A DNA stretch of 64,000 nucleotides from Candidatus Poribacteria bacterium. Its GTDB lineage: Bacteria; Poribacteria; WGA-4E; JAJDTR01. The notes beneath the pieces were generated by a model. That model worked only from the letters and a program-made list of their open reading frames with translations, was not told the origin of the DNA and did not search any database. The stretch covers positions 512,519 through 576,518 of the forward strand of contig CBDDPW010000022.1 of NCBI GenBank assembly GCA_965232535.1, written 5' to 3'. The translations under genes were made by a program, and so were the position numbers. This document shows, in pieces, positions 2,060 to 24,036 of the stretch (positions are counted from its first letter, which is position 1; the number at the start of each line of letters is the position of its first letter).

Positions 2060-2230
2060 AACCTTTGGTGCTAGTTAATTGGTACATGATTTTCAATGAC
2101 ATACTATATCTAGGTTGTTAGCAGGTCAGGTAGGCGCAACATTTGTCAACCGCGCATAATCGCACATCATCGTGTCAGTATATAGTATGTCATTTATGAT
2201 TTAAATACTACATATACTAGCACCATTGGT
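2060..2230 (-). mobile_element. MITE-like ~170-bp element, copy 1 (reverse orientation)
   Basis: Near-identical reverse complement of the elements at 5569-5738 and 18744-18913. Imperfect 15-bp terminal inverted repeats (ACCAATGGTGCTAGT / ACCTTTGGTGCTAGT). Flanked by TATTA on both sides, with a 1-nt boundary ambiguity. No coding capacity. Confidence 0.75.
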
Positions 2231-2374
2231 TATTAATCTATACTTCACGCTGCTAAAACTTGCGTGTTTTCATGCGTCTGGTAGGTAGGTGCGGTTTCCA
2301 ACCGCACCAATGCTCCGATCCGTGTAGGAGCGATCTCCAGGTCGCGACCTCCTGTTGCTGCGTAAATCCCAATT

Positions 2375-4061: not shown

Positions 4062-5569
4062 ATGAACGGGCAAAAAAAGAAAATCGAAGATGCGCTGCAC
4101 CAATTCGCCGACGGTGACCTCGCCGACAACGCGAAACACCTTCTCAATGTCCTCGGCACGAAAGCGGACGAACCATGCGTCTTAGACCGAACGCCGCCGA
4201 GAGATTTCTTGAAGTTTTCAATCAAGATCCAGAGCGTCGCATGAACCCGGATAGGGCTCTGACGAAAAAATGGAAATCTATTGACCTTCTGTTTCAGTTG
4301 ACGGAGGAGGAAATCAGTAACAATCCCAATCTTGAGATTGACTTCGGAGGCGGCGGCATTGACAAGACGCGCATGGAATCCTACCTCTTTTTCGCCATCA
4401 AGCTAAGCGGTGGCCATTACACGCGGACACAACTGTCCCAGATTACGCGCGAAATCAACAAACCGTTCGACATGCCGGCAATGATTCTCTTTCAACACGG
4501 TGAGGCGCTCACCTTTGCTGTGATTGACCGCCGTCTCAACAAGCGCGACGAATCCAAAGATGTCCTCCTGAAGGCAACGCTCATCAAAGACATCAACGCC
4601 GCCGATCCCCACCCCGCCCACATTCTAATACTGTTCGACCTCTCAATTGCCAAGCTGCACGAGAAATACAGGTTCAGAAACTTTGAGCAACTTCATGAGG
4701 CATGGAAGAAGACGCTGGACACATCGGAACTCAACAAACGATTTTACGAAGAAATTGCTAACTGGTATTTCTGGGCTGTCAATGAGGTGACGTTCCCGGA
4801 CGGTGCCGAGAAGAACAAGGAAATTCGCAACGCGACCAGCGTTATACGGCTAATAACACGCCTGATTTTCGTCTGGTTCATCAAGGAAAAGGGGTTGGTA
4901 CCCGATGCTCTATTCAATGAAACGAAGATTCAAGAGCTTCTTGTCAACACCGACCTACGGGAGTGCACCTACTACAAGGCAATTCTTCAGAACCTGTTCT
5001 TCGCCACGCTGAATCAGGAAATGAACACGAAGAAAATGAACACGCCAACAAAATCCGATAACCGCAAATTCAGAAATCGGGCTAAGCACTCCAATGGACG
5101 TGATCAAAACTACATGGTGCATTCCTTGTATCGGTATGAGAAATTCTTCAGCGACAAGGATGAAGCTCTCGCTTTGTTTGACAAAATACCTTTTCTTAAC
5201 GGTGGTCTTTTCGAGTGTCTTGACAAATTTCTAGAAAACGAACACGAAAACGGAGGTACGAAGGAAATCCGGATTGACGGCTTTTCCGACAATAAAAAGA
5301 ACAAATTGGACGTGCCCAATCTTCTGTTTTTCTCTGACAAGAAAATCATTGACCTCAACGCTGCCTACGGCACAAGGAACAAGCAATATGAGGTACGCGG
5401 GCTAATTCACATTCTTGACAGTTACAAGTTCACCGTCACCGAAAACACTCCGATAGAGGAGGAAGTGGCGCTTGACCCGGAACTATTGGGAAGAGTGTTT
5501 GAAAACCTTCTCGCCGCTTACAATCCAGAAACCGGTGCGACTGCCCGCAAGTTGACCGGCTCCTATTAA
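4062..5569 (+). pseudogene. N-terminal fragment of a type IIG restriction-modification enzyme / BREX PglX-like protein, disrupted by a frameshift at ~4118-4244 and truncated by a MITE insertion at 5569
   Basis: The 464-aa ORF 4175-5569 has MmeI/PglX-like N-terminal-half motifs (LIFVWFIKEKGL, IPFLNGGLFE, LDPELLGRVFENLL). It ends ...ARKLTGSY* exactly at the MITE boundary. The YYTPREIV motif X continues on the other side of the MITE. ORF 4062-4244 overlaps in another frame (both frames open across 4118-4244). This suggests a frameshift, or alternatively a separate tiny ORF. Confidence 0.7.
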
Positions 5570-5738
5570 CCAATGGTGCTAGTATATGTAGTATTTAAAT
5601 CATAAATGACATACTATATACTGACACGATGATGTGCGATTATGCGCGGTTGACAAATGTTGCGCCTACCTGATCTGCTAACAACCTAGATATAGTATGT
5701 CATTGAAAATCATGTACCAATTAACTAGCACCAAAGGT
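5569..5738 (+). mobile_element. MITE-like ~170-bp element, copy 2, inserted inside the type IIG RM gene
   Basis: Identical to copy 3 except for 1-2 nt. Flanked by a TATTA direct repeat (5564-5568 and 5739-5743). Removing the element plus one TATTA restores the in-frame sequence GSYYTPREIV. The element supplies an in-frame ATG (5697) and a TTGACA box. Confidence 0.85.
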
Positions 5739-8084
5739 TATTACACGCCGCGCGAGATTGTCAACTACATGACCGATGAATCGCTGATTGCGTACCTGAA
5801 GAATGAATTCATCGCCTATCGTGAATCCGAAAGTGCATTCGCTCCCGCTACGCCGCCCTCACAGATAGATTTCAGCGGACAGACAGAACCCATACAGACT
5901 CAGCTTGATATGGGTACGGTAGTCCTATCCAATGAACAAAAAGAGGCGATAGAGAGCGATCTCCGCGCGCTGATTTCGTACAAAGGTCAGCCGCGCAAAT
6001 TCACTACAGGCGAAACGCAAACCCTGATAAAAGCCATTGACGGGCTAAAGGTTCTCGACCCGGCGTGCGGTTCGGGCGCATTTCCGATGGGCGTACTGCA
6101 AAAACTGGTGTTCGTTCTGGGAAGGCTAGACCCGCGCAACGAGGAGTGGAGACAGCGGCAGATTGACAAAGTTCGACACACCATTAAAACTGCCGAAGAG
6201 ATTGAAGATAGCACGGTACGTGAAAATACTATCCGTGATCTTGAACGCGAAATTGACAACATCAACGACGCCTTCGAGCGGAATGAACTCGACTACGGAC
6301 GCAAACTCTACCTAATTGAAAACTGCATCTACGGCGTGGACATCCAACCCATCGCCGTCCAAATCTCTAAACTCCGCTTCTTCATCTCGCTCGTCGTCGA
6401 TCAGAAGATTGATAGAGAGCGCGAAAATCTCGGCGTGCGTCCCCTGCCCAATTTGGAAACAAAGTTTGTGGCGTCGGACGCCCTAATTGATGTGGAAAAG
6501 CCTACCCAAATCGAGATTCGCAACCCGCACGTTGTGCGTAAAGAGAAGGAATTATCGGAGGTGCGTCGGAAACACTTTACCGCTCGGACGCCCCCAACGA
6601 AGAAAAAGTATCGAGATTTGGACACCGCTCTCCGCTCCGAACTCAGCGAGTTGCTCAAACGCGACGGTTTCCCCGATGACACGACCGAAAAAATCGCATA
6701 TTGGGATCCTTACGACCAGAATACATGCACAGATTGGTTTGATCCGGAATGGATGTTCAATACTAAGAACGGGTTTGATGTAGTGATTGGTAACCCCCCT
6801 TATGTTCAATTACAAAAAAACGGCAGTAAATTAGGGCGTTTGTATGAACCGTGCAATTTTGACAGTTTCACGAAGACAGGGGATATTTACTGTCTGTTCT
6901 ATGAGAAAGCGAATCAGTTGTCAAGAGACGGTGGACATGTCTGTTTTATCACATCCAACAAATGGCTGCTCACCGCATATGGGAAAGCGTTGCGAGATTA
7001 CCTTGTAAGACAAACCCAACCTGTTCAACTACTGGACATGGGACCGGGTGTGTTTGACGCGACTGTGGATACCAACATCCTACTGTTTCAAAACACGGCG
7101 CGCGATCTTCGCGCGACGCTCAGAGCAACAACCATCCGAGCCGACTTTGACGCACATACTGATAACATCGCCCAATATATGGGCAATAACGGTGTGGCGA
7201 TGGAACTACCCCCCAAAGGCAAGCCGTGGACAATCTGCTCTCCAGCTGGACTTGCCCTGAGATACAAGATAGAAGACGTTGGCATACCACTGAAAAAGTG
7301 GGATGCAAAAATCTACTACGGAATAAAAACAGGCTGCAACGAAGCGTTTTTCATAGACGAAGTCAAGCGAGAAGAATTGGTGAAGCAAGACCCGAAATCA
7401 GTCGAAATCATCAAACCACTTCTGCGTGGGCGCGACCTTAAACGCTACCATGTCCATCGGTCACAGTTGTATATGCTAGCAACCGGTTACGATTTAGACA
7501 TTCCAACTAAGTATCCCGCCGTCTACAATCATCTCCAAACATTGGGAAGCCAAATAGAATTGGGGAAGATGAAGGTAAGAGGCAAAGGGCTATTCAATAG
7601 AGATGATCAGGGAGAGAATTGGTGGAACCTCAGAGCTTGTGCATACTATTCCGCGTTTGAAAAAGAGAAGATTATTTATCCCAACATGACTAAGTTTCTA
7701 CCATTCGTTTACGACGTGAGGGGGTTTTATACTAATGATAAGAGTTTTATCATTACAAGCGGAAACTATCTGAAATATCTTACAGGCTATTTTAACTCAA
7801 GAATCGCAGCAAGATGGGTTCGCGAAAACTGCCCGGAATTACAAGGTGGGACGAGAGAATTGAGAAAAGTATTTTTTGAGAATATCCCCATTCCCCGTGT
7901 CACAGAAGCGAACCAACATCTTGTCGCGACGATTGAAGAGCGAGTTGACGGAATTCTCGCCGCTAAACGTACAAATCCAGATGAGGACACAACCGCGCTT
8001 GAAAAAGAGATTGATGAGATAGTATACTCATTGTACGATTTATCGCCTGAAGAAATTGCGATTGTGGAAGAAGCGGTGGATTGA
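5697..8084 (+). CDS. C-terminal fragment of type IIG RM / PglX-like enzyme: complete gamma-class N6-adenine DNA methyltransferase domain plus target-recognition region. The ORF begins at a MITE-provided ATG
   Basis: Carries motif X (GYYTPREIV), motif I (LDPACGSGAFPMGVL) and motif IV (VIGNPPYV). About 450 aa of C-terminal TRD-like sequence follow. It is continuous in frame with the upstream fragment if the MITE is removed. Confidence 0.75.
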   Translation: MSLKIMYQLTSTKGYYTPREIVNYMTDESLIAYLKNEFIAYRESESAFAPATPPSQIDFSGQTEPIQTQLDMGTVVLSNEQKEAIESDLRALISYKGQPRKFTTGETQTLIKAIDGLKVLDPACGSGAFPMGVLQKLVFVLGRLDPRNEEWRQRQIDKVRHTIKTAEEIEDSTVRENTIRDLEREIDNINDAFERNELDYGRKLYLIENCIYGVDIQPIAVQISKLRFFISLVVDQKIDRERENLGVRPLPNLETKFVASDALIDVEKPTQIEIRNPHVVRKEKELSEVRRKHFTARTPPTKKKYRDLDTALRSELSELLKRDGFPDDTTEKIAYWDPYDQNTCTDWFDPEWMFNTKNGFDVVIGNPPYVQLQKNGSKLGRLYEPCNFDSFTKTGDIYCLFYEKANQLSRDGGHVCFITSNKWLLTAYGKALRDYLVRQTQPVQLLDMGPGVFDATVDTNILLFQNTARDLRATLRATTIRADFDAHTDNIAQYMGNNGVAMELPPKGKPWTICSPAGLALRYKIEDVGIPLKKWDAKIYYGIKTGCNEAFFIDEVKREELVKQDPKSVEIIKPLLRGRDLKRYHVHRSQLYMLATGYDLDIPTKYPAVYNHLQTLGSQIELGKMKVRGKGLFNRDDQGENWWNLRACAYYSAFEKEKIIYPNMTKFLPFVYDVRGFYTNDKSFIITSGNYLKYLTGYFNSRIAARWVRENCPELQGGTRELRKVFFENIPIPRVTEANQHLVATIEERVDGILAAKRTNPDEDTTALEKEIDEIVYSLYDLSPEEIAIVEEAVD

Positions 8085-8455: not shown

Positions 8456-11098
8456 ATGAATGAAAGAGAATATGCAGGGGCTAAGTGGTGGAAATTTGAT
8501 TTTCATACTCACACACCTGCCTCGGAAGACTTCAGTCAAAGCGGAGTTTCACCTGAATCTTGGTTGAAAGCATTCATGGATGAGGGAATTGATTGTGTCG
8601 CGATTACCGACCATAACAGCGGCGGCTGGATAGACCACTTGAAGAATAAGTTGCAGGAATTGGCCAGCAGCCAGTCCGATTGGTACCGACCCCTGTATCT
8701 GTTTCCGGGGGTGGAAATCTCAGCAAATGGCAACGTGCATATTTTAGCGATATTTGGACATGAGAAGCATAAGAGCGATATCGATCAGTTGCTTGGTGCG
8801 GTTAGTTATTCGGGGACAAAGGGCAAAAGCGATGCAGTAACGAACACGACCGTTACCGAGGTCGTCAATGCAGTTGCGGAACAGGGAGGTATCCCTATTC
8901 CGGCGCATGCCGACACTGCCAATGGGTTGTTTAAACTGCAAGGACTAACATTGGACAATGCGATGGATAATCCCAACCTCTACGCGATGGAGTTATGCGA
9001 CACCGATTACCAAAAGCCCCAACTGTATACTGACATGAAGGTGCGGTGGACTGAAGTCCGAGGCTCCGATACGCATAACTTCAGCGACAGTGCATTTGGT
9101 ACGTTTACCTGGATTAAAATGGATAAACCTTCCATTAACGGATTGAAGCTAGCGCTGATTGATGGAACCGTCTCCGTTAATCGCAAAATGCACGCTGACC
9201 CCAACCGGCACGCGCCGCACTATCTAGAGGAACTCAAAATATGCAAAGCAAAACACATTGGCCGTACAGAGCCCCTCAATTGCAGATTTAGCCCCTTTCT
9301 TAACGCTATAATTGGTGGACGCGGAAGCGGTAAGTCCACATTGGTGGAATTCATGCGCCTAAGCCTGCAGCGCGTTGCGGAACTTCCGGAGTCACTAGAA
9401 AAAGGAACCCGTCAGTATTTTGATGTGAAGGAGGTTAACAGCTTACTGATTGAGAACAGCACGATTTCGCTAATCTATCGCAAAGGTGAGGTGCGGTACC
9501 GGTTGAAATGGTCAGCCGAAGCGGGTAGCACCTCTTTGGAGGAGGAAAAAGATGGCATTTGGAAACCTAGCCCCGGAGAAATACATTCGCTATTTCCTGT
9601 ACGAATTTATAGCCAGAGGCAAATCCTTGAACTAGCAAATGATACAGGCGCGCTGATTCAAGTTATTGATGAAGCGCCCGAAGTTGACTCTTGGACGTTT
9701 AAGACACAACACACGGATTTGGTCAACCAGTACAAACAGATTGAAGGTGAACAAAGAGAACTGAAGCATAAAATTTCCCACGAAAATCGGCTACAAGGAG
9801 AGTCAAACGACCTCGCACGGCAGATTGAGCAAATAGAAAAATCTGGGCACGAGGCTGTACTGCGAAATTTTAGTAAACGGCAGAGGCAGTTAAGCGAGAT
9901 TGACAGCTTGGAAGGAAAATGGAAAGAGATGAGTTGTCGTCTTGCTGACACGCTGCATGACATTACCCCGGCGCATTTCGATAAGCAGCATTTTGCCGAC
10001 GATACCGATATTCTTTCGGTTTTACAAAAAACAAACGAAAAATGGCAAACGATTCAAGACCAATTAGACCAATTGGTACAAGACGCTCAATTATCTATTC
10101 ACAACTGGAATACTGAAAAGAGTGCTGCAGACTGGATGCGACGCCTCAAGACAGATATGAAAAAGTACGAGTCTTTGTCCTCGGAAATGAAACAGCATAA
10201 TATTGATCCACAGCAGTACCCTTGGCTATTGACGAAACAGAAAAGTATACAGACGGAATTGAATCTCATTGCCGATTATCGTTCGCAGTGGCAAGAATTG
10301 GAACATGCGAAGAAACAAGTGTACAACCAGATAAATACAAACAGAACGAAGCTCTCGCAAAAAAGGAAAGAATTTCTAACGCGTGTTCTACGCGATAACT
10401 CTTCGGTCAGCATTGAAGTCAATCCGTTTGGCGAAGATTGGGGCGGCGAACACGGTATAGAAGAAGAGATCCGTAGAATATTACAATGCCAAGATGGCTT
10501 CGAAAAAGATATTGATGCCCTGAAAGAGGTTTATCTACGGGACGGTGGTGGAAAGGTTGAAGAACTCAAAACGGCAGTTAAAGATATTCGCGATGAAAAG
10601 CTGGCTGCCAAAGATAACCGCTTTACCCGACGTTTGCAGAACTTACCTCAAGAATCAATGATTGATTTCATCTTGTGGTTTCCCGAGGATGATTTGAAAG
10701 TTACCTTTGGCCCCAGAAATCAGCACATAGAACAGAGTTCTCCGGGACAGAAAACCGCCGCGTTGTTAGCATTTATCCTTTCCTACGGAGATGAGCCACT
10801 GTTGCTCGATCAACCTGAAGATGATTTGGATAACGAATTAATCTACAAGTTGGTTGTCAAACAGTTGCGAGGAATGAAAAGCAAAAGGCAGATTATCATC
10901 GTTACGCACAACGCCAACATAGTAGTCAACGGCGATGCGGAGATGGTTCTACCGCTTCAGGTCGGCGGTGGTGAAACCCACGTAAGGCGGGCTGCGAGCA
11001 TTCAGGAAAAAGATGTCCGGGAATCCATATGCGAAATTCTGGAAGGGGGGCGACACGCATTTGAAGAGCGCTATAAACGTATTCATTTGGGAACTTAA
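8456..11098 (+). CDS. PHP-domain phosphoesterase fused to Rad50/SbcC/SMC-like ABC ATPase (880 aa; Ppl-like defence protein)
   Basis: The N-terminus (WWKFDFHTHTPASEDF...VAITDHN...PAHADT) is a PHP metal-dependent phosphoesterase fold. A Walker A follows (IIGGRGSGKSTLVEFM). Then comes a ~400-aa coiled-coil-like insertion. The C-terminus has an ABC signature-like SSPGQKTAALLAFIL, a Walker B/D-loop LLLDQPEDDLD and an H-loop IIIVTHNAN. RBS GGAGGT lies upstream. Confidence 0.8.
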   Translation: MNEREYAGAKWWKFDFHTHTPASEDFSQSGVSPESWLKAFMDEGIDCVAITDHNSGGWIDHLKNKLQELASSQSDWYRPLYLFPGVEISANGNVHILAIFGHEKHKSDIDQLLGAVSYSGTKGKSDAVTNTTVTEVVNAVAEQGGIPIPAHADTANGLFKLQGLTLDNAMDNPNLYAMELCDTDYQKPQLYTDMKVRWTEVRGSDTHNFSDSAFGTFTWIKMDKPSINGLKLALIDGTVSVNRKMHADPNRHAPHYLEELKICKAKHIGRTEPLNCRFSPFLNAIIGGRGSGKSTLVEFMRLSLQRVAELPESLEKGTRQYFDVKEVNSLLIENSTISLIYRKGEVRYRLKWSAEAGSTSLEEEKDGIWKPSPGEIHSLFPVRIYSQRQILELANDTGALIQVIDEAPEVDSWTFKTQHTDLVNQYKQIEGEQRELKHKISHENRLQGESNDLARQIEQIEKSGHEAVLRNFSKRQRQLSEIDSLEGKWKEMSCRLADTLHDITPAHFDKQHFADDTDILSVLQKTNEKWQTIQDQLDQLVQDAQLSIHNWNTEKSAADWMRRLKTDMKKYESLSSEMKQHNIDPQQYPWLLTKQKSIQTELNLIADYRSQWQELEHAKKQVYNQINTNRTKLSQKRKEFLTRVLRDNSSVSIEVNPFGEDWGGEHGIEEEIRRILQCQDGFEKDIDALKEVYLRDGGGKVEELKTAVKDIRDEKLAAKDNRFTRRLQNLPQESMIDFILWFPEDDLKVTFGPRNQHIEQSSPGQKTAALLAFILSYGDEPLLLDQPEDDLDNELIYKLVVKQLRGMKSKRQIIIVTHNANIVVNGDAEMVLPLQVGGGETHVRRAASIQEKDVRESICEILEGGRHAFEERYKRIHLGT

Positions 11099-11100
11099 CC

Positions 11101-12321
11101 ATGTTTGACAGCCTGACTGAACTCCGTGAGAAAATATTCCTGGGTGAGGACTCAATGATTGAGTTCAAGAGAGAGTTGCCCGAACGAAAAGAACTCTCCG
11201 ATGAGATGGCGGCTTTCGCTAACGACCGTGGCGGGGTGATACTCATCGGTGTTGAAGATAACGGCGGCATCGTCGGGATTGATCGCGAGAGCTTGGAAAG
11301 GGTTGAGAAAACGGTGGTTGAAATATGCCAAGACAGCATCGATCCGCCGGTTCACATTGTGACGGAGAAGTTGTGCATTGACGAGAAGAACCTGATAAAA
11401 ATTGATGTGTCTCGCACCCCGTTTGTGCATCGATCAGCCAACGGTTATTTCATCCGTCAGGGCAGCACCAAGAGAGAGATGACCACCGAGCAGTTAGGGC
11501 GATTGTTACAAAATCGTTCGCAAGTGCATCGTATGGCTTTTGATGAACAGTTCGTGCCGAACACTCACAGAGACACATTGAGCAGATCGCTTTATCAGCG
11601 GTTTATAACCCCTGGCGTGGCTGAAGGCGAAGAGGAGAACCTGCTCCTTAAGCGGCGTTTGCTTGTCAAGGAAGGCGAGAATTACCGAGCATCCGTCGCC
11701 GGGGTGTTGATGTGTCATCACAAACCCGATGATTACCTCTATAATAGTTTCATTCAGGCGGTCTATTACAATGGCGTGGAAAAGGATGCCAACTACCAGA
11801 TTGACGCCAAGGATTTCAAGGGACCGCTGGATGAACAAATTGTGGACGCCTTCAAATTCGTTGAAAAGCACAACCAAGTGTCCGCGCGAAAGGAGATTGG
11901 CAGAATCGAGCGGCCGCAGTACAGCATGAGAGCCGTTTTTGAGGCAGTCGTTAATGCCGTCGTACACAGAGATTACTCAAAAGCTGGCTCAAAAATTCGA
12001 CTGTTTATGTTTGCGGATCGGCTGGAGCTTTATTCGCCCGGTGCGTTGGGGTACACCTTGACTGTGGAAGATTTGCCCTATAACCAAGCGACCCGTAATG
12101 AGCTCCTTGCCCGGCTACTTTCGGAAACGACGCTTGAGGACCATCTGGCAACTAAGACAACCCGGCGCCACTTTTTGGAACGCCGCGGCGAGGGCGTCGG
12201 TATCATTCTGAACGAGAGCGAGAGACTGAGCGGTAAAACGCCGGTATACGAGGTGTTTGGCGAAGAATTACGCTTGACAATCTTCGCGGCGGAATCTTTG
12301 CAAGACGACATTGCTGTCTGA
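11101..12321 (+). CDS. AlbA_2 (Schlafen-like divergent AAA) + HATPase_c_4 domain protein (putative DNA-binding / RecG-C-terminal-like ATPase)
   Basis: Starts 2 nt after the upstream stop, so it is translationally coupled. The N-terminus (IEFKREL..AFANDRGGVILIGVEDNGGIVGI) is an AlbA_2 fold. The C-terminus (AVVNAVVHRDYS...IRLFMFADRLELYSPG) is the HATPase-like module typical of this family. Confidence 0.8.
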   Translation: MFDSLTELREKIFLGEDSMIEFKRELPERKELSDEMAAFANDRGGVILIGVEDNGGIVGIDRESLERVEKTVVEICQDSIDPPVHIVTEKLCIDEKNLIKIDVSRTPFVHRSANGYFIRQGSTKREMTTEQLGRLLQNRSQVHRMAFDEQFVPNTHRDTLSRSLYQRFITPGVAEGEEENLLLKRRLLVKEGENYRASVAGVLMCHHKPDDYLYNSFIQAVYYNGVEKDANYQIDAKDFKGPLDEQIVDAFKFVEKHNQVSARKEIGRIERPQYSMRAVFEAVVNAVVHRDYSKAGSKIRLFMFADRLELYSPGALGYTLTVEDLPYNQATRNELLARLLSETTLEDHLATKTTRRHFLERRGEGVGIILNESERLSGKTPVYEVFGEELRLTIFAAESLQDDIAV

Positions 12322-12351
12322 ACTGTGATTTTTGTGATGAAGTGATGGACT

Positions 12352-12738
12352 ATGATTAAAGAGGAGTATAAGTATTCGGCGTTGACGGAAAAAGTGATTG
12401 GCTGTGCCATGCGGGTACATTCTAAGTTAGGCAGTGGATTTCAGGAAGTAATCTATCAGAGGGCATTAGCGCTCGAAATGGCTGCTCAAAAAATTCATTT
12501 CAGTCGTGAGCATGAGATGCCTGTCTACTACAGAGAGCAACAAATTGGCACGCGAAGAGCCGATTTCTTGATAGAGGGCGTTGTCTCCGTCGAATTGAAG
12601 GCTATTATCCAACTGGATGACATCCACCTGGCGCAAGCAATCAACTATCTGGAGGCGTACAATCTGGAGGTTGGGTTGCTAATCAACTTTGGCGCACGAA
12701 GCCTTGAATTCAGAAGAGTTACGAACACAAAACTTTAA
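12352..12738 (+). CDS. GxxExxY family protein (small PD-(D/E)xK-like nuclease-fold protein)
   Basis: 128-aa ORF with KVIGCAMRVHSKLGSGFQEVIYQRAL...ADFLIEGVVSVELKAI, the hallmark GxxExxY motif region. Confidence 0.75.
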   Translation: MIKEEYKYSALTEKVIGCAMRVHSKLGSGFQEVIYQRALALEMAAQKIHFSREHEMPVYYREQQIGTRRADFLIEGVVSVELKAIIQLDDIHLAQAINYLEAYNLEVGLLINFGARSLEFRRVTNTKL

Positions 12739-12801
12739 TCAACAAAATCATGGCAATCACCATAATCTCATGAATCACAGTTCAGACAAAGGGAAAAAAC
12801 C

Positions 12802-15800
12802 ATGGCAGAAAACACCTCACTATTCCCTTCCGGTATTCGTGATAACCGCCATCGCGGCACGGTCGGCAGATTCCTGCAGGACTATATCAAAGACGGATCG
12901 TCACTCTCTATCGTCTCAGCCTACTTCACGATTTACGCCTTCGACGCCTTGAGATCGTCTTTGCTCGGAATCAATGACCTTCGCTTCCTCTTCGGCGAAC
13001 CGCGATTCATCAACCGGTTAGATCCCGAAAGAACGGAAAAGAAATCATTCATCATAGACAGCGGCGGCTTGCAGTTGACGAACCAGCTTGAACTCAAGCG
13101 GGTGGCAAGGGAATGCGCCGCGTGGATTGAAGACAAGGTCGAGATTCGCTCAATCCAAAAGGAAAACCTGCTGCACGGCAAGATGTACCACATCGACGAT
13201 ACCAACCGGGAACACGCGATTCTCGGTAGTTCCAACTTCACCGTGCGCGGCTTGGGATTGGGCGAAAGTGAAGGCAACATCGAACTCAATTTGAAGGTTG
13301 AGGACAACCGGGATGTTACCGACCTGAAACAATGGTTTAACGAACTGTGGTATGACGAGAAACAGGTCGTGGATGTTAAGGATGAAGTGTTGTCCTACCT
13401 TAATCAACTCTATGAGAATTACGCGCCGGAGTTCGTCTACTACAAGACGCTTTATCATCTCTTTGAGCGGTACTTGAGCGATCAGGAGGGGTGGGGCCTG
13501 CTGGACACACCGCCGCAACTCGTCGACACGCAAATCTGGAACGCGCTCTACGGTTTCCAGAAGGACGGCGTAAAAGGGGCAATCAACAAAATCCTGACGC
13601 ACAACGGCTGTATTATCGCAGACAGCGTCGGCTTGGGAAAGACATACGAAGCCCTTGCGGTGATAAAATACTTTGAACTGCGCAACGAAAACGTGCTGGT
13701 GCTATGTCCCAAGAAACTACGAGAGAACTGGACCATCTACCCTGCATATACGGGCAACACACTCAATCCCTTCCCAAATGACCGCTTCGGCTATACCGTT
13801 CTCTCGCATACTGACCTGAGCCGGGCGGACGGCATGTCGGGGGATGTGGATCTGTCGTCGTTCAATTGGGGTAATTACGGTCTGGTGGTTATTGACGAGT
13901 CGCACAATTTCCGAAACAACACCCCCGGAAAAAAAGATCGGGACGGCAACCTGATACGCTTGAGCCGCTACAAACGGCTGATGGATGACATTGTCAAGAG
14001 CGGCGTAAACACCAAGATGCTGTTGCTGTCCGCGACGCCGGTCAACAACGATCTACGCGATCTGCGCAACCAACTTTACTTTCTTACAGAGGAACGCGAC
14101 GACGCTTTCAAGGATTCACTCGGCGTCGCCAATCTGAGAGAAACCATCTCAAGCGCCCAAACCGCCTTCAACAAGTGGGCAAAGCAGGAGGGGACGCGCA
14201 GCAGCCAGAATCTGCTGGAAGAACTGAGTACCCACTTCTTCAGACTGCTTGACGGTTTGACCATCGCGCGGTCGCGGAAGCAAATTCAAAAATACTACCC
14301 CGACTCGATGAGAGAATTGGGCGGCTTCCCGAAACGCGGCAAGCCCGAATCCATCTATACCAAAATAGATCTCAAGGATGAGTTCCTGTCTTACGACGCG
14401 CTGAACGATGAGATTTCCGAGTATCAACTGTCGCTCTACAATCCGACCAAATATCTCCGACCCGAACACGAGTCCGAATACAACTTGGAGTTGGTAAAAA
14501 ACTTTACGCAGATTGACCGTGAGCACTTCCTGATTGGCATGATGAAGGTAAACTTCCTCAAACGCTTGGAGAGCTCCGTCCACTCCTTCAAGATTACGCT
14601 GGAGCGTACGCTTGATAAGATTGAAAAGTTGGAGGAACGTATCCGGCGGTTTCAGGAGTTCCGCGACGAAAACCCCGACCTCGATCCGGCGGAGATGGAG
14701 ATTGACGCCGGTGATGACGAAGACCTGCAAGCGGCTTTGGAGGTGGGGAAGAGCCTGAAATTCAAGACGGCGCACCTTGACGTGGAGCGGTGGTTGGAGG
14801 ATTTGCGGCAGGACAGAGAACAGCTTGAGCGCCCCCTCCGCTCCGCGGAAAAAGTCAACCCGGCCCGTGACGCAAAGCTCACCAGACTGAAGCAGTTGAT
14901 TCGAGAGAAAGTTAAGAATCCTTCAACCACCAAGCGTGGAACTCTAAATCGAAAGGTATTGGTATTCACCGCCTTTGCGGATATCGCCGACTACCTCTAC
15001 GGGGAGTTGCATGAATGGGCGCAGACGGAATTGGGCATCCGTACCGGGATGGTGACGGGGGGCACCATGCCCAACAGAACCACCCTGGGCAAAACCAACT
15101 TTGTCGACATCCTTACCAATTTCTCGCCAATTGCGAAGAACCGGAGCAGCGATAGGGAAATGCTTCAGGACGAGGAAATAGACCTACTCATCGGCACGGA
15201 TTGTATCTCGGAAGGCCAGAACCTGCAAGACTGCGACTACCTGATCAACTACGACATCCACTGGAATCCGGTGCGCATCATTCAGCGCTTCGGACGGATT
15301 GACCGTATTGGAAGCGTCAACAACCGAGTTCATTTAGTGAACTTCTGGCCCACCCCCGACCTGAATCGTTACATCAACCTGAAAAATCGGGTTGAAGCGC
15401 GGATGGCGCTGGTGGATGTCACGGCTGCGCAGGGAGATAACCTGCTTGACCCCGACGCGCTCTCCGAAGCCATTGAAGGGGACCTCAAATACCGCGACCA
15501 ACAACTCCTGAAACTTCAAGAGGAAATCCTTGACCTTGAAGAGTTTGACGAAAACGTCTCCCTCAACGAGTTCACGCTTGACGATTTCCGTATGGAACTC
15601 ATCAGGTACATCGAAAGCAACAAAAAGAAACTTGAGGAGGCGCCTTTCGGGCTTTACGCCGTTGTGCCTCCGCCCGCGGGAGATCCGATAATTAAACCCG
15701 GTGTTATCTTTTGCCTCAAACAGAAATCGAAGTCGGAGGAGAACGAAAAGTTGAATCCGACCCATCCCTACTTCCTGGTCTACGTTCGAGAGGAAGGCGT

Positions 15801-16206
15801 CGTGCGGTTTACGTTTGCCCAGCCGAAGCAAATCCTTGAGATGTACCGTCAATTGTGTGAGACGAAGACCAGTCCGTATGACGAACTCTGTGCGTTGTTC
15901 GATGAACACACGGAAAACGGCGCCGACATGTTGGGTTACGACAAACTACTCCGGGAAGCCGTTAAATCCATTTCGCATACCTACGAGAAGCGCGCTTTCA
16001 CCAATCTTCGATCCGGTCGCGGCGGGGTATTGCCGCTCGAATCCGAGCAGGTTGGCGACACGACGGATTTTGAGTTAGTGACGTGGTTGGTGATTAAGGA
16101 CGAATCGTCTCCCATGAAGCTGAATGAGCTTCTGGATCAAGTGACAGAGTACAATATTCATGGCGAAGTTGACACCGGTTCTCCGGTGGGGCGTGAAGAA
16201 TGGTAA
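12802..16206 (+). CDS. PLD-family nuclease / SNF2-family helicase fusion with MazE-like antitoxin C-terminal tail (1134 aa)
   Basis: N-terminal HKD motif (HGKMYHIDD...GSSNFT). SNF2 motifs: I GLGKTYEAL, II VIDESHNFRN, III LLSATPVNN, V/VI QRFGRIDRIGS. The last ~45 aa (PMKLNELLDQVTEYNIHGEVDTGSPVGREEW) closely resemble the C-terminal half of MazE/PemI antitoxins (..[28 protein letters not shown]). Confidence 0.85.
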   Translation: MAENTSLFPSGIRDNRHRGTVGRFLQDYIKDGSSLSIVSAYFTIYAFDALRSSLLGINDLRFLFGEPRFINRLDPERTEKKSFIIDSGGLQLTNQLELKRVARECAAWIEDKVEIRSIQKENLLHGKMYHIDDTNREHAILGSSNFTVRGLGLGESEGNIELNLKVEDNRDVTDLKQWFNELWYDEKQVVDVKDEVLSYLNQLYENYAPEFVYYKTLYHLFERYLSDQEGWGLLDTPPQLVDTQIWNALYGFQKDGVKGAINKILTHNGCIIADSVGLGKTYEALAVIKYFELRNENVLVLCPKKLRENWTIYPAYTGNTLNPFPNDRFGYTVLSHTDLSRADGMSGDVDLSSFNWGNYGLVVIDESHNFRNNTPGKKDRDGNLIRLSRYKRLMDDIVKSGVNTKMLLLSATPVNNDLRDLRNQLYFLTEERDDAFKDSLGVANLRETISSAQTAFNKWAKQEGTRSSQNLLEELSTHFFRLLDGLTIARSRKQIQKYYPDSMRELGGFPKRGKPESIYTKIDLKDEFLSYDALNDEISEYQLSLYNPTKYLRPEHESEYNLELVKNFTQIDREHFLIGMMKVNFLKRLESSVHSFKITLERTLDKIEKLEERIRRFQEFRDENPDLDPAEMEIDAGDDEDLQAALEVGKSLKFKTAHLDVERWLEDLRQDREQLERPLRSAEKVNPARDAKLTRLKQLIREKVKNPSTTKRGTLNRKVLVFTAFADIADYLYGELHEWAQTELGIRTGMVTGGTMPNRTTLGKTNFVDILTNFSPIAKNRSSDREMLQDEEIDLLIGTDCISEGQNLQDCDYLINYDIHWNPVRIIQRFGRIDRIGSVNNRVHLVNFWPTPDLNRYINLKNRVEARMALVDVTAAQGDNLLDPDALSEAIEGDLKYRDQQLLKLQEEILDLEEFDENVSLNEFTLDDFRMELIRYIESNKKKLEEAPFGLYAVVPPPAGDPIIKPGVIFCLKQKSKSEENEKLNPTHPYFLVYVREEGVVRFTFAQPKQILEMYRQLCETKTSPYDELCALFDEHTENGADMLGYDKLLREAVKSISHTYEKRAFTNLRSGRGGVLPLESEQVGDTTDFELVTWLVIKDESSPMKLNELLDQVTEYNIHGEVDTGSPVGREEW

Positions 16207-16553
16207 GACCAACCAACTACGTTCCACGACGCGGTGATGCGGTGTGGGTTGACTTCAATCCTCAAGCCGGGCACGAGCAAGCGGGACGGCGTCCTGCCGT
16301 TGTACTATCACCAGAGTCTTATAACAGCACCGTAGGTCTGGCAATTCTGTGCCCAATTACCAGTAGAGTGAAGGGGTATCCTTTTGAGGTTACAATCCCA
16401 GCCGGGCTAGATGTAAATGGGGTTATTCTTGCGGACCAACTCAAGAGCGCGGATTGGCGTGTGAGAAATGCGGAGTTGATATGTTCTTTGCCCATGACCA
16501 CAGTTGACACAGTTTTGCAGAGAGTCCAAACGCTCTTAGGAAGAGATGGTTAA
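16200..16553 (+). CDS. mazF: MazF/PemK-family type II toxin endoribonuclease
   Basis: Has VPRRGDAVWVDFNPQAGHEQAGRRPAVVLSP...LCPITS, the MazF/Kid signature. The ATG overlaps the helicase stop (ATGGTAA), the classic antitoxin-toxin overlap geometry. Confidence 0.85.
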   Translation: MVRPTNYVPRRGDAVWVDFNPQAGHEQAGRRPAVVLSPESYNSTVGLAILCPITSRVKGYPFEVTIPAGLDVNGVILADQLKSADWRVRNAELICSLPMTTVDTVLQRVQTLLGRDG

Positions 16554-16689
16554 CTATTTGGCTCAAGTAACAAATCAAGGTGTTTTCAAGGTCGTTGGGT
16601 GCGCCGACAGAACGTGCTGTGGTAGCATCTCATCATTCCTTTCGGGATGATTCATTCAGCAAGCACCACTCGTTTTTCAATCCTCGGTT

Positions 16690-17557
16690 AGCTTTGAAAA
16701 AGCGTTCCTTAATAGCGCGCCATTATCCCTGTCGGAATAATTCTTTCAGCAAGTAACTACCTCACATTTCCATGTAGGAGGGGCATCTTGCCCCGACGGT
16801 TTGTCTATAGCGCACATTATCCTTGGCGGAATAATTCTTTCAGCAAGTAACACTCATCTTCGGATCTATGACAGGCTTTGGGGAGGTGTTCCTTCGTAAA
16901 ATGCTTTTCACTCCAGAGGATCAAGCGACTGAATAGGGAGCGCGATAGTAAATCCTATGCAATGTCAATAGAATCGCGGTGTCTCCCAATCTCCGCGCTC
17001 CAGCGGAGCGCAATGTGTCTAGCGCATCATCAAGTGTCACTCATATTTCGTTCTATGGCTAGCTCTGAAAAAGTGTTACTTGGTAGCGCCCCATTATCCC
17101 TGTCAGGATAATTCATTCAGCAAGTAACACTCATTTTTCGCTCTATGACAGGTTTTGAAAAAGCGTTCCTTCGTAGAATGGTTTCACTCCAGAGGAGTGA
17201 GATGTCAATAGAACACGATTCCCCATCGCGTCTGCACTCCAGAGGAGTGCAATGTGGAGTGTTACTTGAGAGCGTGCCATTATCCCTGTCGCGATAATTC
17301 TTTCAGCAAGCAACACTCTTGTACCGCAAACTGTCAGTTTGTGATCACAATTCATCAGCGGTACACGTTCATTTTTCGCTCTATGGCTGGCTTTCCGAGA
17401 GTGTTACTTGATAGCGCGCCATTATCCCTGTCGGAATAATTCTTTCAGCAAGCAACACTCTTGTACCGCAAACTGTTAGTTTGCGATCGCAATCCATCAG
17501 CGGTACACGTTCATTTTTCGCTCTATGACTGGCTTTCCGAGAGTGTTACTTGATAGG
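16690..17557. repeat. array of nested palindromic REP/MITE-like units (family A: GTGTTACTTG-N-CCATTATCCCTGTCGGAATAAT-N-CAAGTAACAC), including two tandem ~142-bp composite units (17269-17556)
   Basis: Full family-A units occur at 17073-17130, 17269-17316 and 17401-17458. Degenerate copies lie at 16718-16776 and 16806-16853, and a truncated copy at 17540-17556. The units are interleaved with other palindromes (CACTCCAGAGGAGTG, CAAACTGTCAGTTTG, GCGCTCCAGCGGAGCGC). The spacers are not unique. Confidence 0.8.
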
Positions 17558-18700: not shown

Positions 18701-18743
18701 TACGCATCTGATTTTGCATTGACAACTTTACACGTGTATAGTA

Positions 18744-18913
18744 ACCAATGGTGCTAGTATATGTAGTATTTAAATCATAAATGACATACTATATACTGAC
18801 ACGATGATGTGCGATTATGCGCGGTTGACAAATGTTGCGCCTACCTGACCTGCTAACAACCTAGATATAGTATGTCATTGAAAATCATGTACCAATTAAC
18901 TAGCACCAAAGGT
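18744..18913 (+). mobile_element. MITE-like ~170-bp element, copy 3
   Basis: Full-length copy flanked by a TAGTA direct repeat (18739-18743 and 18914-18918). Same TIRs as copies 1 and 2. Confidence 0.85.
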
Positions 18914-19117
18914 TAGTATGATAAGGAACGGACTAATAAGTTGCGGAGTGGATGCGCTACTCTTCAAATTGCCGATTTCCCGTGTTCGAACGGGGCGGCG
19001 CTTCGGCTTCGCGCGTACTTAAAAACCTGTTTGAAATGCCGTTTCGAGTAAAATCATGCGTGTCGAAACCGAGTTTTTTCTTCAAAACTTGGTTTCTTTC
19101 TCGCACAATTCTGTAGG

Positions 19118-19245
19118 ATCAACCGACTGAATAGGGAGGGCGATAGAGATCCTTCAACCGACTGAATAGGGAGGGATCAAGTGAGTGAATAGCGAACGCG
19201 ATAGAGATCCTTCAACCGACTGAATAGGGAGGGCGATAGAACTCC
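19118..19245. repeat. tandem ~35-bp repeats (TCAACCGACTGAATAGGGAGGGCGATAGAGATCCT), 3.5 units with one nested variant unit
   Basis: Head-to-tail units with no spacers. Related single units lie at 16919-16952, 19770-19838 and 27440-27476, and in reverse orientation at 33181-33198 and 58911-58975. Confidence 0.7.

Positions 19246-22014: not shown

Positions 22015-24036
<2,022 letters not shown>

What the first reader, a model, noticed from the sequence alone, without database searches (positions are those of the whole stretch)
8456..16553. Compact five-gene candidate defence operon: PHP-phosphoesterase::Rad50-like ABC ATPase, Schlafen-like AlbA_2/HATPase protein, GxxExxY protein, PLD-nuclease::SNF2-helicase::MazE fusion, MazF
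All five genes are co-directional, with 2-64 bp gaps or overlaps. They sit immediately downstream of a disrupted type IIG RM gene, inside a MITE-bounded accessory island. Every component is a defence-island hallmark domain. The 880-aa PHP+SMC-like ATPase looks like a single-chain SbcCD analogue, and resembles the single-gene Ppl (polymerase/histidinol-phosphatase-like) defence family. The PLD+SNF2 fusion resembles DISARM DrmC+DrmD, but no DrmA/DrmB (DUF1998) partner is present, and no BREX genes (brxA/B/C, pglZ, brxL) accompany the PglX-like gene. This combination does not match a named system. It could be a new multi-gene system or a stack of Ppl-like, SNF2-PLD and toxin-antitoxin modules.
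Basis: partly seen in the sequence, partly recalled or inferred. Interest (0 to 1): 0.8.

Follow-up and report, generated by a model that had tools for sequence, protein, structure and literature searches.

The report
Stacked defence genes, helicase-anchored MazF toxin
The five genes are not one new immune system but a stack of separate defence modules sitting inside a widespread two-gene restriction-like system, and the one unusual feature is that the helicase of that system has taken over the toxin-binding tail of the MazE antitoxin and so appears to be what now neutralises the neighbouring MazF toxin.

Summary
The five ORFs, their spacing and their domains are real. The "one new five-gene system" reading fails.

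- **PLD-SNF2 helicase (12802-16206).** Its conserved partner is the upstream type IIG-like methyltransferase gene (4175-8084, split here by a MITE). The two are adjacent in 73 of 80 loci from many phyla, and no third gene is conserved.
- **Variable slot.** In the Poribacteria lineage of this window the pair frames a slot. Eight loci carry eight different contents (TIR-TPR, FRG-TPR, SMC-like ATPases, IS elements, Ppl).
- **Ppl/TrlF (8456-11098) plus the Schlafen-like gene (11101-12321).** This is a mobile two-gene cassette. It recurs in seven contexts with the same 2-nt spacing, three of them away from the helicase.
- **GxxExxY gene.** A PD-(D/E)XK_3 protein seen in only one sister locus.
- **"MazE fusion".** This is only the last ~30 residues of a cognate MazE, the MazF-binding tail. 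A deletion that removed the AbrB DNA-binding domain fused it in frame to the helicase.

Twelve protein clusters of 85-95% identity keep the fusion. Tail and mazF are under purifying selection (dN/dS 0.04-0.28 and 0.08-0.16).

Verdict: known kinds, a new arrangement, and one unusual helicase-antitoxin chimera.

The parts
2060..2235 (-). MITE copy, same family as the one that splits the IIG gene
   Evidence: 99% complementary to 5564-5739 and 18739-18914
4175..5569 (+). N-terminal fragment (464 aa) of the type IIG-like methyltransferase, the conserved partner of the PLD-SNF2 gene
   Evidence: tblastn finds it beside PLD-SNF2 in 73 of 80 loci. PADLOC REase_MTase_IIG. Conserved NGGLF and ENTP..ALDPELLG motifs, with no conserved D..ExK.
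5564..5743 (+). MITE insertion that splits the IIG gene; TIR ACCAATGGTGCTAGT, target duplication TATTA
   Evidence: Sequence read directly. Three copies at 98-99% identity. The orthologue in L170 is an intact 1220-aa gene.
5697..8084 (+). C-terminal fragment (795 aa) of the IIG-like gene: gamma-class N6-adenine methyltransferase plus TaqI_C target-recognition domain; its start codon lies inside the MITE
   Evidence: Pfam Eco57I 128 bits, TaqI_C 44 bits. PADLOC REase_MTase_IIG 421 bits, DrmMI 88 bits.
8456..11098 (+). Ppl / TrlF-family protein: PHP phosphoesterase plus ABC/SMC-like ATPase
   Evidence: PADLOC Ppl 499 bits over the full length. NCBIfam TrlF_fam_ATP 567.6 bits, above the cut-off of 350.
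11101..12321 (+). Schlafen-like AlbA_2 plus HATPase_c_4 protein, the recurrent partner of this Ppl clade
   Evidence: Pfam. It follows Ppl with the same 2-nt spacer in L164, L165, L166, L167, L169 and L175.
12352..12738 (+). GxxExxY / PD-(D/E)XK_3 small nuclease-fold protein; a lineage-specific passenger
   Evidence: Pfam PDDEXK_3 131 bits, TIGR04256 134.6 bits. Found elsewhere only in L171, at 97.7% identity.
12802..16104 (+). Body of the PLD(HKD)-SNF2 helicase-nuclease (aa 1-1101), the effector of the two-gene IIG/PLD-SNF2 module
   Evidence: Pfam PLDc_2, SNF2-rel_dom, Helicase_C. PADLOC C3a139 'HKD+Snf2' 407 bits. H125/K127/N145, GLGKT 277-281, DESH 365-368 and motif VI are invariant in 58 homologues. 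dN/dS 0.09-0.12.
16105..16206 (+). MazE C-terminal MazF-binding tail (33 aa), fused in frame to the helicase
   Evidence: The top three of six PDB matches (the only ones with E <= 0.03) are MazE C-termini, aligned end to end. Ungapped homology to the last 30 aa of free-standing cognate MazE proteins. DNA junction mapped. Conserved in 12 protein clusters. dN/dS 0.04-0.28.
16200..16553 (+). MazF endoribonuclease toxin; its start overlaps the helicase stop (ATGGTAA), as in canonical mazEF
   Evidence: PemK_toxin 93.5 bits. NF007386 127.4 bits, above the cut-off of 120. dN/dS 0.08-0.16.
18739..18918 (+). Third copy of the MITE

Best explanation
The region is a layered defence locus, not a single operon-encoded system. 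It has four layers.

**1. Core two-gene restriction-modification-like module.** It consists of a ~1,250-aa type IIG-like N6-adenine methyltransferase with a target-recognition domain (4175-8084, split here by a recent MITE) and a PLD(HKD)-SNF2 helicase-nuclease (12802-16206).
- Shown: the pair is conserved across phyla, normally as a tight operon.
- Inferred: the methyltransferase marks self DNA and supplies sequence recognition, and the dimeric PLD-SNF2 motor cuts unmarked DNA. This follows MtsC/MtsD of MANTIS and DrmMI/DrmD/DrmC of DISARM.

**2. Cassette slot.** The space between the two core genes accepts other defence cassettes.
- Shown: it is small in most phyla and 8-9 kb in this Poribacteria lineage, and its content differs in every sister genome.

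**3. Cassettes in this genome.**
- The Ppl/TrlF + Schlafen-like pair. E. coli Ppl is reported as an NTP-inhibited 3'-5' ssDNA exonuclease that senses 3'-OH ends. The role of the Schlafen-like partner is unknown; I infer a sensor or regulator.
- A GxxExxY PD-(D/E)XK gene.

**4. mazEF remnant.**
- Shown by sequence: a mazEF cassette once lay 3' of the helicase. A deletion removed the helicase stop codon and the first ~50 codons of mazE.
- Inferred from what is known of MazE peptides: the helicase now carries the MazF-binding tail and is the only visible antidote to MazF.
- Inferred consequence: loss, truncation or frameshift of the 3.4-kb helicase gene would free MazF, so the toxin locks the helicase gene in place. 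MazF might also be released if a phage destroys or blocks the helicase.
For: **Core pair**
- tblastn of the window's IIG halves finds them on the same strand beside PLD-SNF2 in 73 of 80 species loci.
- Six of the seven loci without IIG are contigs that end within about 1 kb.
- The gap is 250 bp or less in 43 of the 71 loci where IIG lies downstream.
- De novo clustering of 943 neighbouring ORFs finds only these two families in more than 16 of 79 loci.
- The pairing was also noted in passing in PMC9881135.

**Slot**
- Eight loci with the order IIG, slot, PLD-SNF2 (window, L001, L003, L005, L164, L167, L170, L171) carry eight different gene sets.
- L005 has the same frame at a different chromosomal site.

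**Ppl + Schlafen-like pair**
- The stop/start spacing is the same 2 nt in the window and in L164, L165, L166, L167, L169 and L175, at 60-77% Ppl identity. L166, L169 and L175 show neither IIG nor PLD-SNF2 in their 6-10 kb flanks.

**Tail**
- A PDB sequence search returned six chains; the top three are MazE C-termini aligned end to end, and the other three are unrelated weak matches.
- About 78 of 80 free-standing relatives of this MazF are preceded by an ~80-aa MazE ending ...LTLKQLLAKVTKENLHHEVDTGSAVGNETW. The stop/start overlap is the same as in the window.
- The DNA breakpoint is mapped.
- The Met that starts the tail segment in the window is Thr or Ile in most relatives. The tail can therefore be made only as a fusion.
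- Purifying selection acts on the tail and on mazF, at dS up to 0.5-0.6.
- A C-terminal MazE peptide of 23-35 aa suffices to inhibit E. coli MazF, even when attached to another protein (PMC3281143).
Against: - No experiment was done; every functional coupling is inferred.
- The IIG partner is interrupted in this genome, and apparently also in L164. The core module may therefore be inactive here.
- No nuclease motif was found in the IIG N-terminus, and no reliable structure was obtained. The division of labour between the two core proteins is not established.
- The Trp of E. coli MazE that inserts into MazF is Thr in this tail. It is also Thr in the free cognate MazEs, which weakens the objection.
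- L171 keeps the tail after losing mazF. The tail can therefore persist for a time without its target.
- The Schlafen-like gene also occurs without Ppl (L171, L173/L174). Ppl also occurs without it (L168, enterobacterial plasmids). That pairing is facultative.
Confidence: 0.75

Rival explanations
1. The five genes form one integrated, previously unnamed multi-gene defence system whose parts need each other.
For: - All five genes are co-directional and tightly spaced.
- No strong + strand terminator-like site lies in the gene junctions.
- L164 and L167 repeat the order Ppl, Schlafen-like gene, PLD-SNF2.
Against: - Among 80 PLD-SNF2 loci from other species, Ppl and GxxExxY each hit 0 loci.
- Sister genomes with 85-95% identical helicases carry entirely different genes in the same position.
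- The Ppl + Schlafen-like pair occurs with no PLD-SNF2 or IIG in view.
- Ppl is described as a single-gene system in E. coli (review PMC12904381).
Confidence: 0.05
2. The MazE tail and MazF form an adaptive second line of defence. The helicase holds MazF inactive. When a phage inhibitor, degradation of the helicase or its engagement on foreign DNA frees MazF, translation stops and the infection aborts. This is a guard or abortive-infection coupling, not merely addiction.
For: - The fusion persists across 12 clusters of 85-95% identity under purifying selection.
- One MazE tail can silence a MazF dimer (PMC3281143).
- The single HKD motif implies a helicase dimer, and so two tails per dimer (compare MtsD).
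Against: - Purifying selection on the tail is expected from toxin addiction alone.
- The fusion is confined to one narrow clade, and none of the 80 free MazF relatives is fused.
- L171 has lost mazF but keeps the helicase.
- No release mechanism can be read from the sequence.
Confidence: 0.25
3. The locus is decaying. With the IIG partner split by a MITE, the PLD-SNF2/MazF unit is a non-functional remnant kept only because the tail cannot be lost while MazF is present.
For: - A MITE interrupts IIG inside a methyltransferase motif.
- IIG is also split in L164, next to an IS element.
- The neighbourhood holds IS110 and repeat clutter.
Against: - The helicase body has dN/dS 0.09-0.12 with no stop codon in any of five sequences.
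- All catalytic motifs are intact.
- The MITE copies are 98-99% identical, so the insertion is recent.
- The 795-aa C-terminal ORF keeps the whole methyltransferase and target-recognition domain, and promoter-like sites lie inside the MITE.
- IIG is intact in L003, L005, L170 and L171.
Confidence: 0.2
4. Ppl and the Schlafen-like gene are two independent single-gene defences that often travel together, not a functional pair.
For: - Each occurs without the other: L168 and the plasmid TrlF lack the Schlafen-like gene, and L171 and L173/L174 lack Ppl.
- AlbA_2/HATPase_c_4 genes also sit alone in the PLD-SNF2/IIG slot of other phyla.
Against: - The same 2-nt stop-start spacing is kept in seven contexts despite 23-40% divergence of Ppl.
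- The partner protein is more conserved than Ppl itself. Its best 120 hits are all at least 76% identical, while the best 120 Ppl hits fall to 59%.
Confidence: 0.35

Closest known systems
MANTIS (Gao_RL; BREX-related type 2; Hma-like): MtsA DUF499 AAA+ ATPase, MtsB (written DUF3870 in the MANTIS preprint; PMC12839542 calls the type-2 BR small protein DUF3780), MtsC N6-adenine methyltransferase, MtsD HKD/PLD + SF2 helicase-nuclease (bioRxiv 10.64898/2026.09.23.753747; PMC12839542)
   Same: - The effector has the same layout: an N-terminal single HKD/PLD nuclease followed by an SF2/SNF2-type motor.
- The catalytic His and the Walker A Lys lie at similar positions: H122/K260 in MtsD, H125/K280 here.
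- It is paired with an N6-adenine methyltransferase that presumably sets self identity.
- Other defence genes are embedded in such loci (the Hma-embedded candidates of PADLOC).
   Different: - No DUF499 ATPase and no DUF3780/DUF3870 gene lies in the window.
- No third gene family is shared by more than 16 of the 79 related loci.
- The methyltransferase is a much larger type IIG-like protein with its own TaqI_C target-recognition domain.
- The PADLOC HmaA score is only 69 bits, against 407 bits for the separate 'HKD+Snf2' model.
DISARM class 1 (DrmD SNF2, DrmMI, DrmA, DrmB/DUF1998, DrmC PLD) and ARMADA II
   Same: - It combines an SNF2 helicase, a PLD nuclease and a large adenine methyltransferase.
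- The scores are weak but significant: DrmD 122-145 bits, DrmMI 88 bits.
   Different: - No DrmA/YprA helicase and no DUF1998 protein is present. These define DISARM and ARMADA.
- PLD and SNF2 are fused in one protein.
- The scores lie far below the NCBIfam cut-offs (144.6 against 610).
Type IIG restriction-modification enzymes (Cj0031/Eco57I/MmeI-like single-chain enzymes)
   Same: - The IIG-like gene has the Eco57I-type methyltransferase core, a TaqI_C target-recognition domain and the NGGLF helical region.
- The best PADLOC model is REase_MTase_IIG, at 421 bits.
- PMC9881135 describes Cj0031 homologues with an adjacent PLD+SNF CDS.
   Different: - Classical type IIG enzymes work alone and carry an N-terminal PD-ExK nuclease.
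- Here a PLD-SNF2 partner is almost always present.
- No conserved D..ExK motif is seen in the first 150 residues of 44 homologues.
Ppl (Gao et al. 2020 single-gene system; NCBIfam TrlF family)
   Same: The 880-aa protein matches over its full length, with PHP plus ABC/SMC-like ATPase.
   Different: - It scores below the NCBIfam Ppl equivalog cut-off (570.6 against 1000) but above the TrlF-family cut-off.
- It is 39.6% identical to the enterobacterial plasmid TrlF proteins.
- This clade usually carries a Schlafen-like gene 2 nt downstream, which the plasmid and E. coli versions lack.
Canonical mazEF type II toxin-antitoxin module
   Same: - MazF is complete.
- The stop/start overlap is the same (ATGGTAA).
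- The antidote segment is homologous to the MazF-binding C-terminus of MazE.
   Different: - The antitoxin has no AbrB/SpoVT DNA-binding and dimerisation domain, so the usual autoregulation is impossible.
- The tail is the C-terminus of an 1,100-aa helicase-nuclease.
- This resembles engineered MazF 'zymoxins', in which a MazE peptide is attached to another protein (PMC3281143).

Membership tests
Ppl / TrlF family | Full-length PHP + ABC-type ATPase protein that passes the family HMM | tested here: met
   PADLOC Ppl 499 bits, residues 8-876 on profile positions 4-892 of 894. NCBIfam TrlF_fam_ATP 567.6 bits, cut-off 350.
Ppl / TrlF family | NCBIfam Ppl_antiphage equivalog cut-off (orthologue of the tested E. 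coli protein) | tested here: not met
   570.6 bits against a cut-off of 1000
Ppl / TrlF family | Anti-phage activity as a single gene; NTP-inhibited 3'-5' exonuclease | not testable with these tools
   Known only from the literature on E. coli Ppl (PMC12904381)
DISARM | DrmA helicase plus DrmB (DUF1998) core | tested here: not met
   No such domain in any ORF of window 1-24000. No third gene family is conserved around 79 PLD-SNF2 loci.
DISARM | DrmD / DrmMI at family score | tested here: not met
   NCBIfam DISARM_DrmD 144.6 bits against a cut-off of 610. PADLOC DrmMI 88 bits against REase_MTase_IIG 421 bits.
BREX | PglZ and BrxC/PglY with PglX | tested here: not met
   No PglZ or BrxC among the window ORFs. 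BREX_1_MTaseX 72 bits against a cut-off of 500.
BREX-related type 2 / MANTIS / Hma | DUF499 AAA+ ATPase and a DUF3780 (DUF3870 in the MANTIS preprint) protein with the methyltransferase and HKD-helicase | tested here: not met
   Neither is present in the window. No further gene family is conserved in the 79 related loci by sequence clustering; Pfam was run on only a few of those ORFs. Definitions taken from PMC12839542 and the MANTIS preprint.
BREX-related type 2 / MANTIS / Hma | Effector with an N-terminal HKD nuclease fused to an SF2/SNF2 motor | tested here: met
   PLDc_2 at residues 94-183, SNF2 from residue 252, Helicase_C at 715-837. HxK, GKT and DESH are invariant.
Type IIG restriction-modification enzyme | Methyltransferase and target-recognition domain in one polypeptide | tested here: met
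   Eco57I 128 bits and TaqI_C 44 bits. The orthologues are single genes of 1,150-1,250 aa.
Type IIG restriction-modification enzyme | N-terminal PD-(D/E)xK nuclease in the same polypeptide | tested here: inconclusive
   No Pfam or PDB match for the 464-aa N-terminal part. No conserved D..ExK in an alignment of 44 homologues. No usable structure model.
Type IIG restriction-modification enzyme | Intact gene in this genome | tested here: not met
   Split by a MITE at 5564-5743
mazEF type II toxin-antitoxin | MazF/PemK toxin | tested here: met
   NF007386 127.4 bits, cut-off 120; PemK_toxin 93.5 bits
mazEF type II toxin-antitoxin | Separate MazE antitoxin with an AbrB/SpoVT DNA-binding domain | tested here: not met
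   Only the last ~30 residues are present, fused to the helicase. No Pfam hit at E up to 10. The free relatives have the full 80-aa MazE.
mazEF type II toxin-antitoxin | Antitoxin segment binds and neutralises MazF | not testable with these tools
   Inferred from homology to the MazE C-terminus and from MazE peptide work cited in PMC3281143

The most novel reading that the evidence does not exclude
A restriction-like helicase-nuclease has become the antitoxin of MazF. By capturing only the MazF-binding tail of MazE, the PLD-SNF2 protein ties the cell's survival to the integrity of its own 3.4-kb reading frame. It may also release the RNase when a phage disables it. This would be a natural guard or addiction link between a DNA-targeting defence and an abortive-infection toxin. 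It sits in a widespread, still unnamed two-gene methyltransferase/PLD-SNF2 system that also serves as a docking slot for other defence cassettes.
Probability: 0.3. Interest if true: 0.7.

Novelty: new variant of a known kind. Interest (0 to 1): 0.5.

Why it matters
**Annotation.** A tidy co-directional gene row in a defence island need not be one system. Only comparison with sister genomes separated the frame (IIG + PLD-SNF2) from the passengers.

**Three leads that are cheap to test.**
1. A very common two-gene methyltransferase/PLD-SNF2 module. It lacks the extra ATPases of MANTIS, BREX and DISARM, so it could be the simplest member of that mechanistic class.
2. A clade of Ppl that travels with a Schlafen-like partner.
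3. A natural chimera in which a toxin's antidote peptide is carried by a large defence enzyme. This bears on how toxin-antitoxin modules stabilise or back up other immune genes.

Tried and rejected
- **Literature on "TrlF".** Two searches returned only unrelated hits.
- **Structure of the PLD-SNF2 protein.** AlphaFold2 with 58 homologues gave a poor model (mean pLDDT 52, pTM 0.36). All homologues are at least 65% identical. I ran no fold search and draw no structural conclusion.
- **PDB sequence searches.**
  - The IIG N-terminal fragment found nothing.
  - The IIG C-terminal fragment found only distant methyltransferases.
  - The helicase found only distant SNF2/RapA proteins.
- **Pfam on the tail.** No match, even at E up to 10.
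- **Metagenome scan with MazF.** It did not recover the fused clade (best 74% identity). It did supply the free mazEF comparison set.
- **Rfam and tRNA scans of the window.** Both were empty, so there is no tRNA-linked integration site.
- **Promoter and terminator scans.** Hits did not exceed the shuffled expectation, so they say nothing on operon structure.
- **"MITE-bounded island".** Rejected, because the flanking genes are syntenic in sister genomes.
- **Tail as a separately translated mini-ORF.** Rejected, because its Met is Thr or Ile in most relatives.
- **Membership in DISARM, ARMADA, BREX, MANTIS or Hma.** Rejected for lack of their defining genes.

Full report
**1. The observation**

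ORF listing reproduces the five co-directional ORFs at exactly the reported coordinates. The gaps are 2, 30 and 63 nt, and the last pair overlaps by 7 nt. Profile searches confirm the domain calls:
- The 880-aa protein matches PADLOC Ppl over its full length (499 bits). It also matches the NCBIfam TrlF family (567.6 bits, cut-off 350). It falls below the narrower Ppl equivalog cut-off (570.6 against 1000).
- The 406-aa protein is SLFN_AlbA_2 plus HATPase_c_4.
- The 128-aa protein is GxxExxY, which is also Pfam PDDEXK_3.
- The 1134-aa protein is PLDc_2 plus SNF2 plus Helicase_C. Its best PADLOC model is "HKD+Snf2" (C3a139, 407 bits), and that profile ends at residue 1097.
- The 117-aa protein is MazF.

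Upstream, ORFs 4175-5569 and 5697-8084 are the two halves of a type IIG-like gene (REase_MTase_IIG, 421 bits).

**2. The IIG gene is split by a MITE, but the locus is not a MITE-bounded island**

The sequence at 5564-5743 is a 176-180 nt element with terminal inverted repeats and a TATTA target duplication. It is inserted between ...TGSY and YTPREIV. Two more copies at 98-99% identity lie at 2060-2235 and 18739-18918.

The flanking genes are the same in sister genomes:
- Left flank: a SAM methyltransferase at 2961-3722.
- Right flank: APH at 17558-18547, then LigA at 22018-24036.

The locus therefore sits at a conserved chromosomal position. The window also carries an extra IS110 transposase at 20419-21825.

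**3. The true partner of the PLD-SNF2 gene**

The helicase family is large and well conserved, at 65-69% identity across phyla. The 80 best loci were kept. The closest are Candidatus Poribacteria, which is probably the source of the window.

tblastn with the window proteins gave these results:
- The IIG halves lie on the same strand next to PLD-SNF2 in 73 of 80 loci.
- Six of the seven loci without IIG are contigs that end within about 1 kb.
- In 43 of the 71 loci where IIG lies downstream, the gap is 250 bp or less.
- Ppl and GxxExxY each hit 0 of these loci. MazF and the tail hit only the sister Poribacteria locus.

De novo clustering of 943 neighbouring ORFs found only these two families in more than 16 of 79 loci. 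The next most frequent families are:
- an SMC_N/AAA_23 ATPase downstream of IIG (16 loci);
- an AlbA_2/HATPase_c_4 protein (10 loci);
- a DUF1016 protein (10 loci).

No DUF1998, PglZ, BrxC, DUF499 or DUF3780 gene was seen. This excludes membership of DISARM/ARMADA, BREX and BREX-related type 2/MANTIS/Hma as those are defined in PMC12839542, the MANTIS preprint and the ARMADA II paper. The pairing [quoted passage not shown] was recorded in passing in PMC9881135. I found no name or experiment for it.

**4. A cassette slot**

In the Poribacteria lineage the order is IIG, then a slot, then PLD-SNF2. Eight loci show eight different slot contents:

| Locus | Slot content |
|---|---|
| window | Ppl, Schlafen-like gene, GxxExxY |
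| L164 | IS, cNMP-TIR, TIR-TPR, DUF3644, Ppl, Schlafen-like gene, TPR |
| L001 | TIR-TPR, a 745-aa protein, a truncated Schlafen-like gene, TPR |
| L170 | a 767-aa protein, a 195-aa protein, TPR |
| L171 | TIR-TPR, DUF2971, FRG-TPR, Schlafen-like gene, a 191-aa protein, GxxExxY |
| L003 | a 1016-aa protein and a 474-aa SMC_N/AAA_15 ATPase |
| L005 | FRG and TPR genes, at a different chromosomal site |
| L167 | IS630, Ppl, a Schlafen-like/deoxyribosyltransferase fusion |

In other phyla, 28 of 71 loci have a gap of 0.4-3.6 kb between the two core genes. At least seven of these gaps hold an AlbA_2/HATPase_c_4 gene. This resembles the defence genes known to be embedded in Hma, BREX and type I RM loci.

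**5. Ppl and the Schlafen-like gene**

In seven contexts the Schlafen-like gene starts 2 nt after the Ppl stop codon: the window, L164, L165, L166, L167, L169 and L175. Ppl identity in these contexts is 60-77%. In L166, L169 and L175 no IIG or PLD-SNF2 gene is in view. Matching contig lengths in the two homologue lists indicate at least nine more pairs that share a contig.

The pairing is facultative:
- Ppl stands alone in L168 and on enterobacterial plasmids, where TrlF (39.6% identical) sits beside a type II RM.
- The Schlafen-like gene occurs without Ppl in L171 and in L173/L174. In L173/L174 an AAA_15/AAA_21 ATPase occupies the upstream position instead.

E. coli Ppl is described as a single-gene, NTP-inhibited 3'-5' ssDNA exonuclease that senses 3'-OH ends (PMC12904381).

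**6. The MazE tail**

The last 33 residues are SSPMKLNELLDQVTEYNIHGEVDTGSPVGREEW. They extend past the point where the family profile and the closest 1103-aa relatives end (...WLVIKDAGE*).
- **Homology to MazE.** Against PDB sequences the tail returned six chains. The top three are the extreme C-termini of MazE proteins: 7d2n_E at E = 0.001, and 1mvf and 1ub4 at E = 0.03. The other three are unrelated matches at E about 0.6.
- **Free-standing relatives.** Eighty free relatives of this MazF (62-74% identical) were fetched. About 78 are preceded by a normal ~80-aa MazE. Its last 30 residues align without gaps to the tail, and its stop codon overlaps the mazF start in the same way.
- **Breakpoint.** A DNA alignment places the breakpoint right after AAGGACG. 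The event removed the helicase stop codon and the AbrB/SpoVT half of mazE.
- **Distribution.** Twelve protein clusters of 85-95% identity (62 member sequences) carry the fusion. In most of them the Met is replaced by Thr or Ile, so the tail can be made only as part of the helicase.
- **Selection.** Nei-Gojobori estimates give dN/dS of 0.09-0.12 for the helicase body. The values are 0.04-0.28 for the tail (dS 0.15-0.51) and 0.08-0.16 for mazF.
- **An exception.** One relative, L171, has lost mazF but keeps the tail.
- **Published work on E. coli MazE.** The acidic C-terminus makes the contacts with MazF. A peptide of 23-35 residues inactivates the MazF dimer, even when fused to another protein (PMC3281143).

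**7. How it most likely works**

*Shown*
- The gene families and their intact catalytic motifs: HxK and N of the PLD domain, GLGKT, DESH and motif VI.
- The conserved IIG/PLD-SNF2 adjacency.
- The variable slot.
- The recurrent Ppl + Schlafen-like pair.
- The origin and conservation of the tail.

*Inferred*
- The IIG-like protein methylates self DNA and supplies sequence recognition. The PLD-SNF2 dimer translocates on and cleaves unmarked DNA, as in MANTIS MtsC/MtsD.
- The cassettes act independently.
- The helicase tail neutralises MazF. Truncation or loss of the helicase gene would therefore be punished.

A true abortive-infection role for the tail/MazF pair is possible but unsupported. In this genome the MITE may have inactivated the methyltransferase partner, and that cannot be decided from sequence.

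**8. Novelty and score**

Ppl, MazF, type IIG-like methyltransferases and HKD-SNF2 effectors are all known kinds. The five-gene "system" is not real as a unit. Three things are new or under-described:
- the two-gene IIG/PLD-SNF2 module acting as a frame for cassettes;
- the Ppl + Schlafen-like pairing;
- above all, the helicase-MazE-tail chimera.

I rate the finding a new variant of known kinds, with interest 0.5.

Noticed in passing
window 2060-2235, 5564-5743, 18739-18918: A recently active MITE family: 176-180 nt, copies 98-99% identical, TIR ACCAATGGTGCTAGT, TATTA duplication at the IIG insertion. Promoter-like hexamers lie inside the element just upstream of the ATG of the 795-aa IIG fragment.
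   Followed up: partly
window 16631-17540 and 19692-20183: A second family of short dispersed repeats. The units are 78-142 nt with the core TTACTTGATAGCGCGCCATTATCCCTGTCGGAATAATTCTTTCAGCAAGTAAC, and there is a tandem pair at 17257-17540. They fill the 1-kb gap between mazF and APH, which is only about 75 bp in the sister locus L001. They occur again upstream of the IS110 gene.
   Followed up: no
window 19096-19266: A short array of ~35-nt units (TCAACCGACTGAATAGGGAGGGCGATAGAGATCCT) spaced 23 or 35 nt apart. There are no spacers, so it does not look like CRISPR. Its nature is unknown.
   Followed up: no
window 20419-21825: An IS110-family transposase (DEDD_Tnp_IS110 + Transposase_20) lies between APH and LigA. 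It is absent from that position in L001, L003, L170 and L171.
   Followed up: partly
L001 2610-3077; L164 185-3626; window 5697-8084 residues ~490-790: The target-recognition part of the IIG-like gene differs sharply between close relatives: 72% identity up to residue 488, then little or none. L001 has an extra TaqI_C fragment, and L164 has a split gene next to an IS element. This fits specificity swapping. PMC9881135 reports programmed inversions in such Cj0031-like genes.
   Followed up: no
L167 8637-10337; L166 7470-9169; L173 6001-7715: The Schlafen-like protein is fused to, or directly followed by, a nucleoside 2-deoxyribosyltransferase-like domain in several genomes. This hints at an effector partner of its own.
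   Followed up: no
L173/L174 4106-5880: At the position syntenic with Ppl in L166, a 383-aa AAA_15/AAA_21 ATPase and a 207-aa protein precede the Schlafen-like gene instead of Ppl. The Schlafen-like gene may therefore be a constant neighbour of interchangeable ABC-type ATPase modules.
   Followed up: no
window 2375-2950: An ORF with a double-stranded-RNA-binding motif (dsrm, 41 bits) lies just after the first MITE copy, upstream of the SAM methyltransferase gene.
   Followed up: no
L171 13399-13760: In this sister genome mazF has been deleted: only the codons MVR remain, followed by unrelated sequence. The helicase still carries an intact MazE tail.
   Followed up: yes
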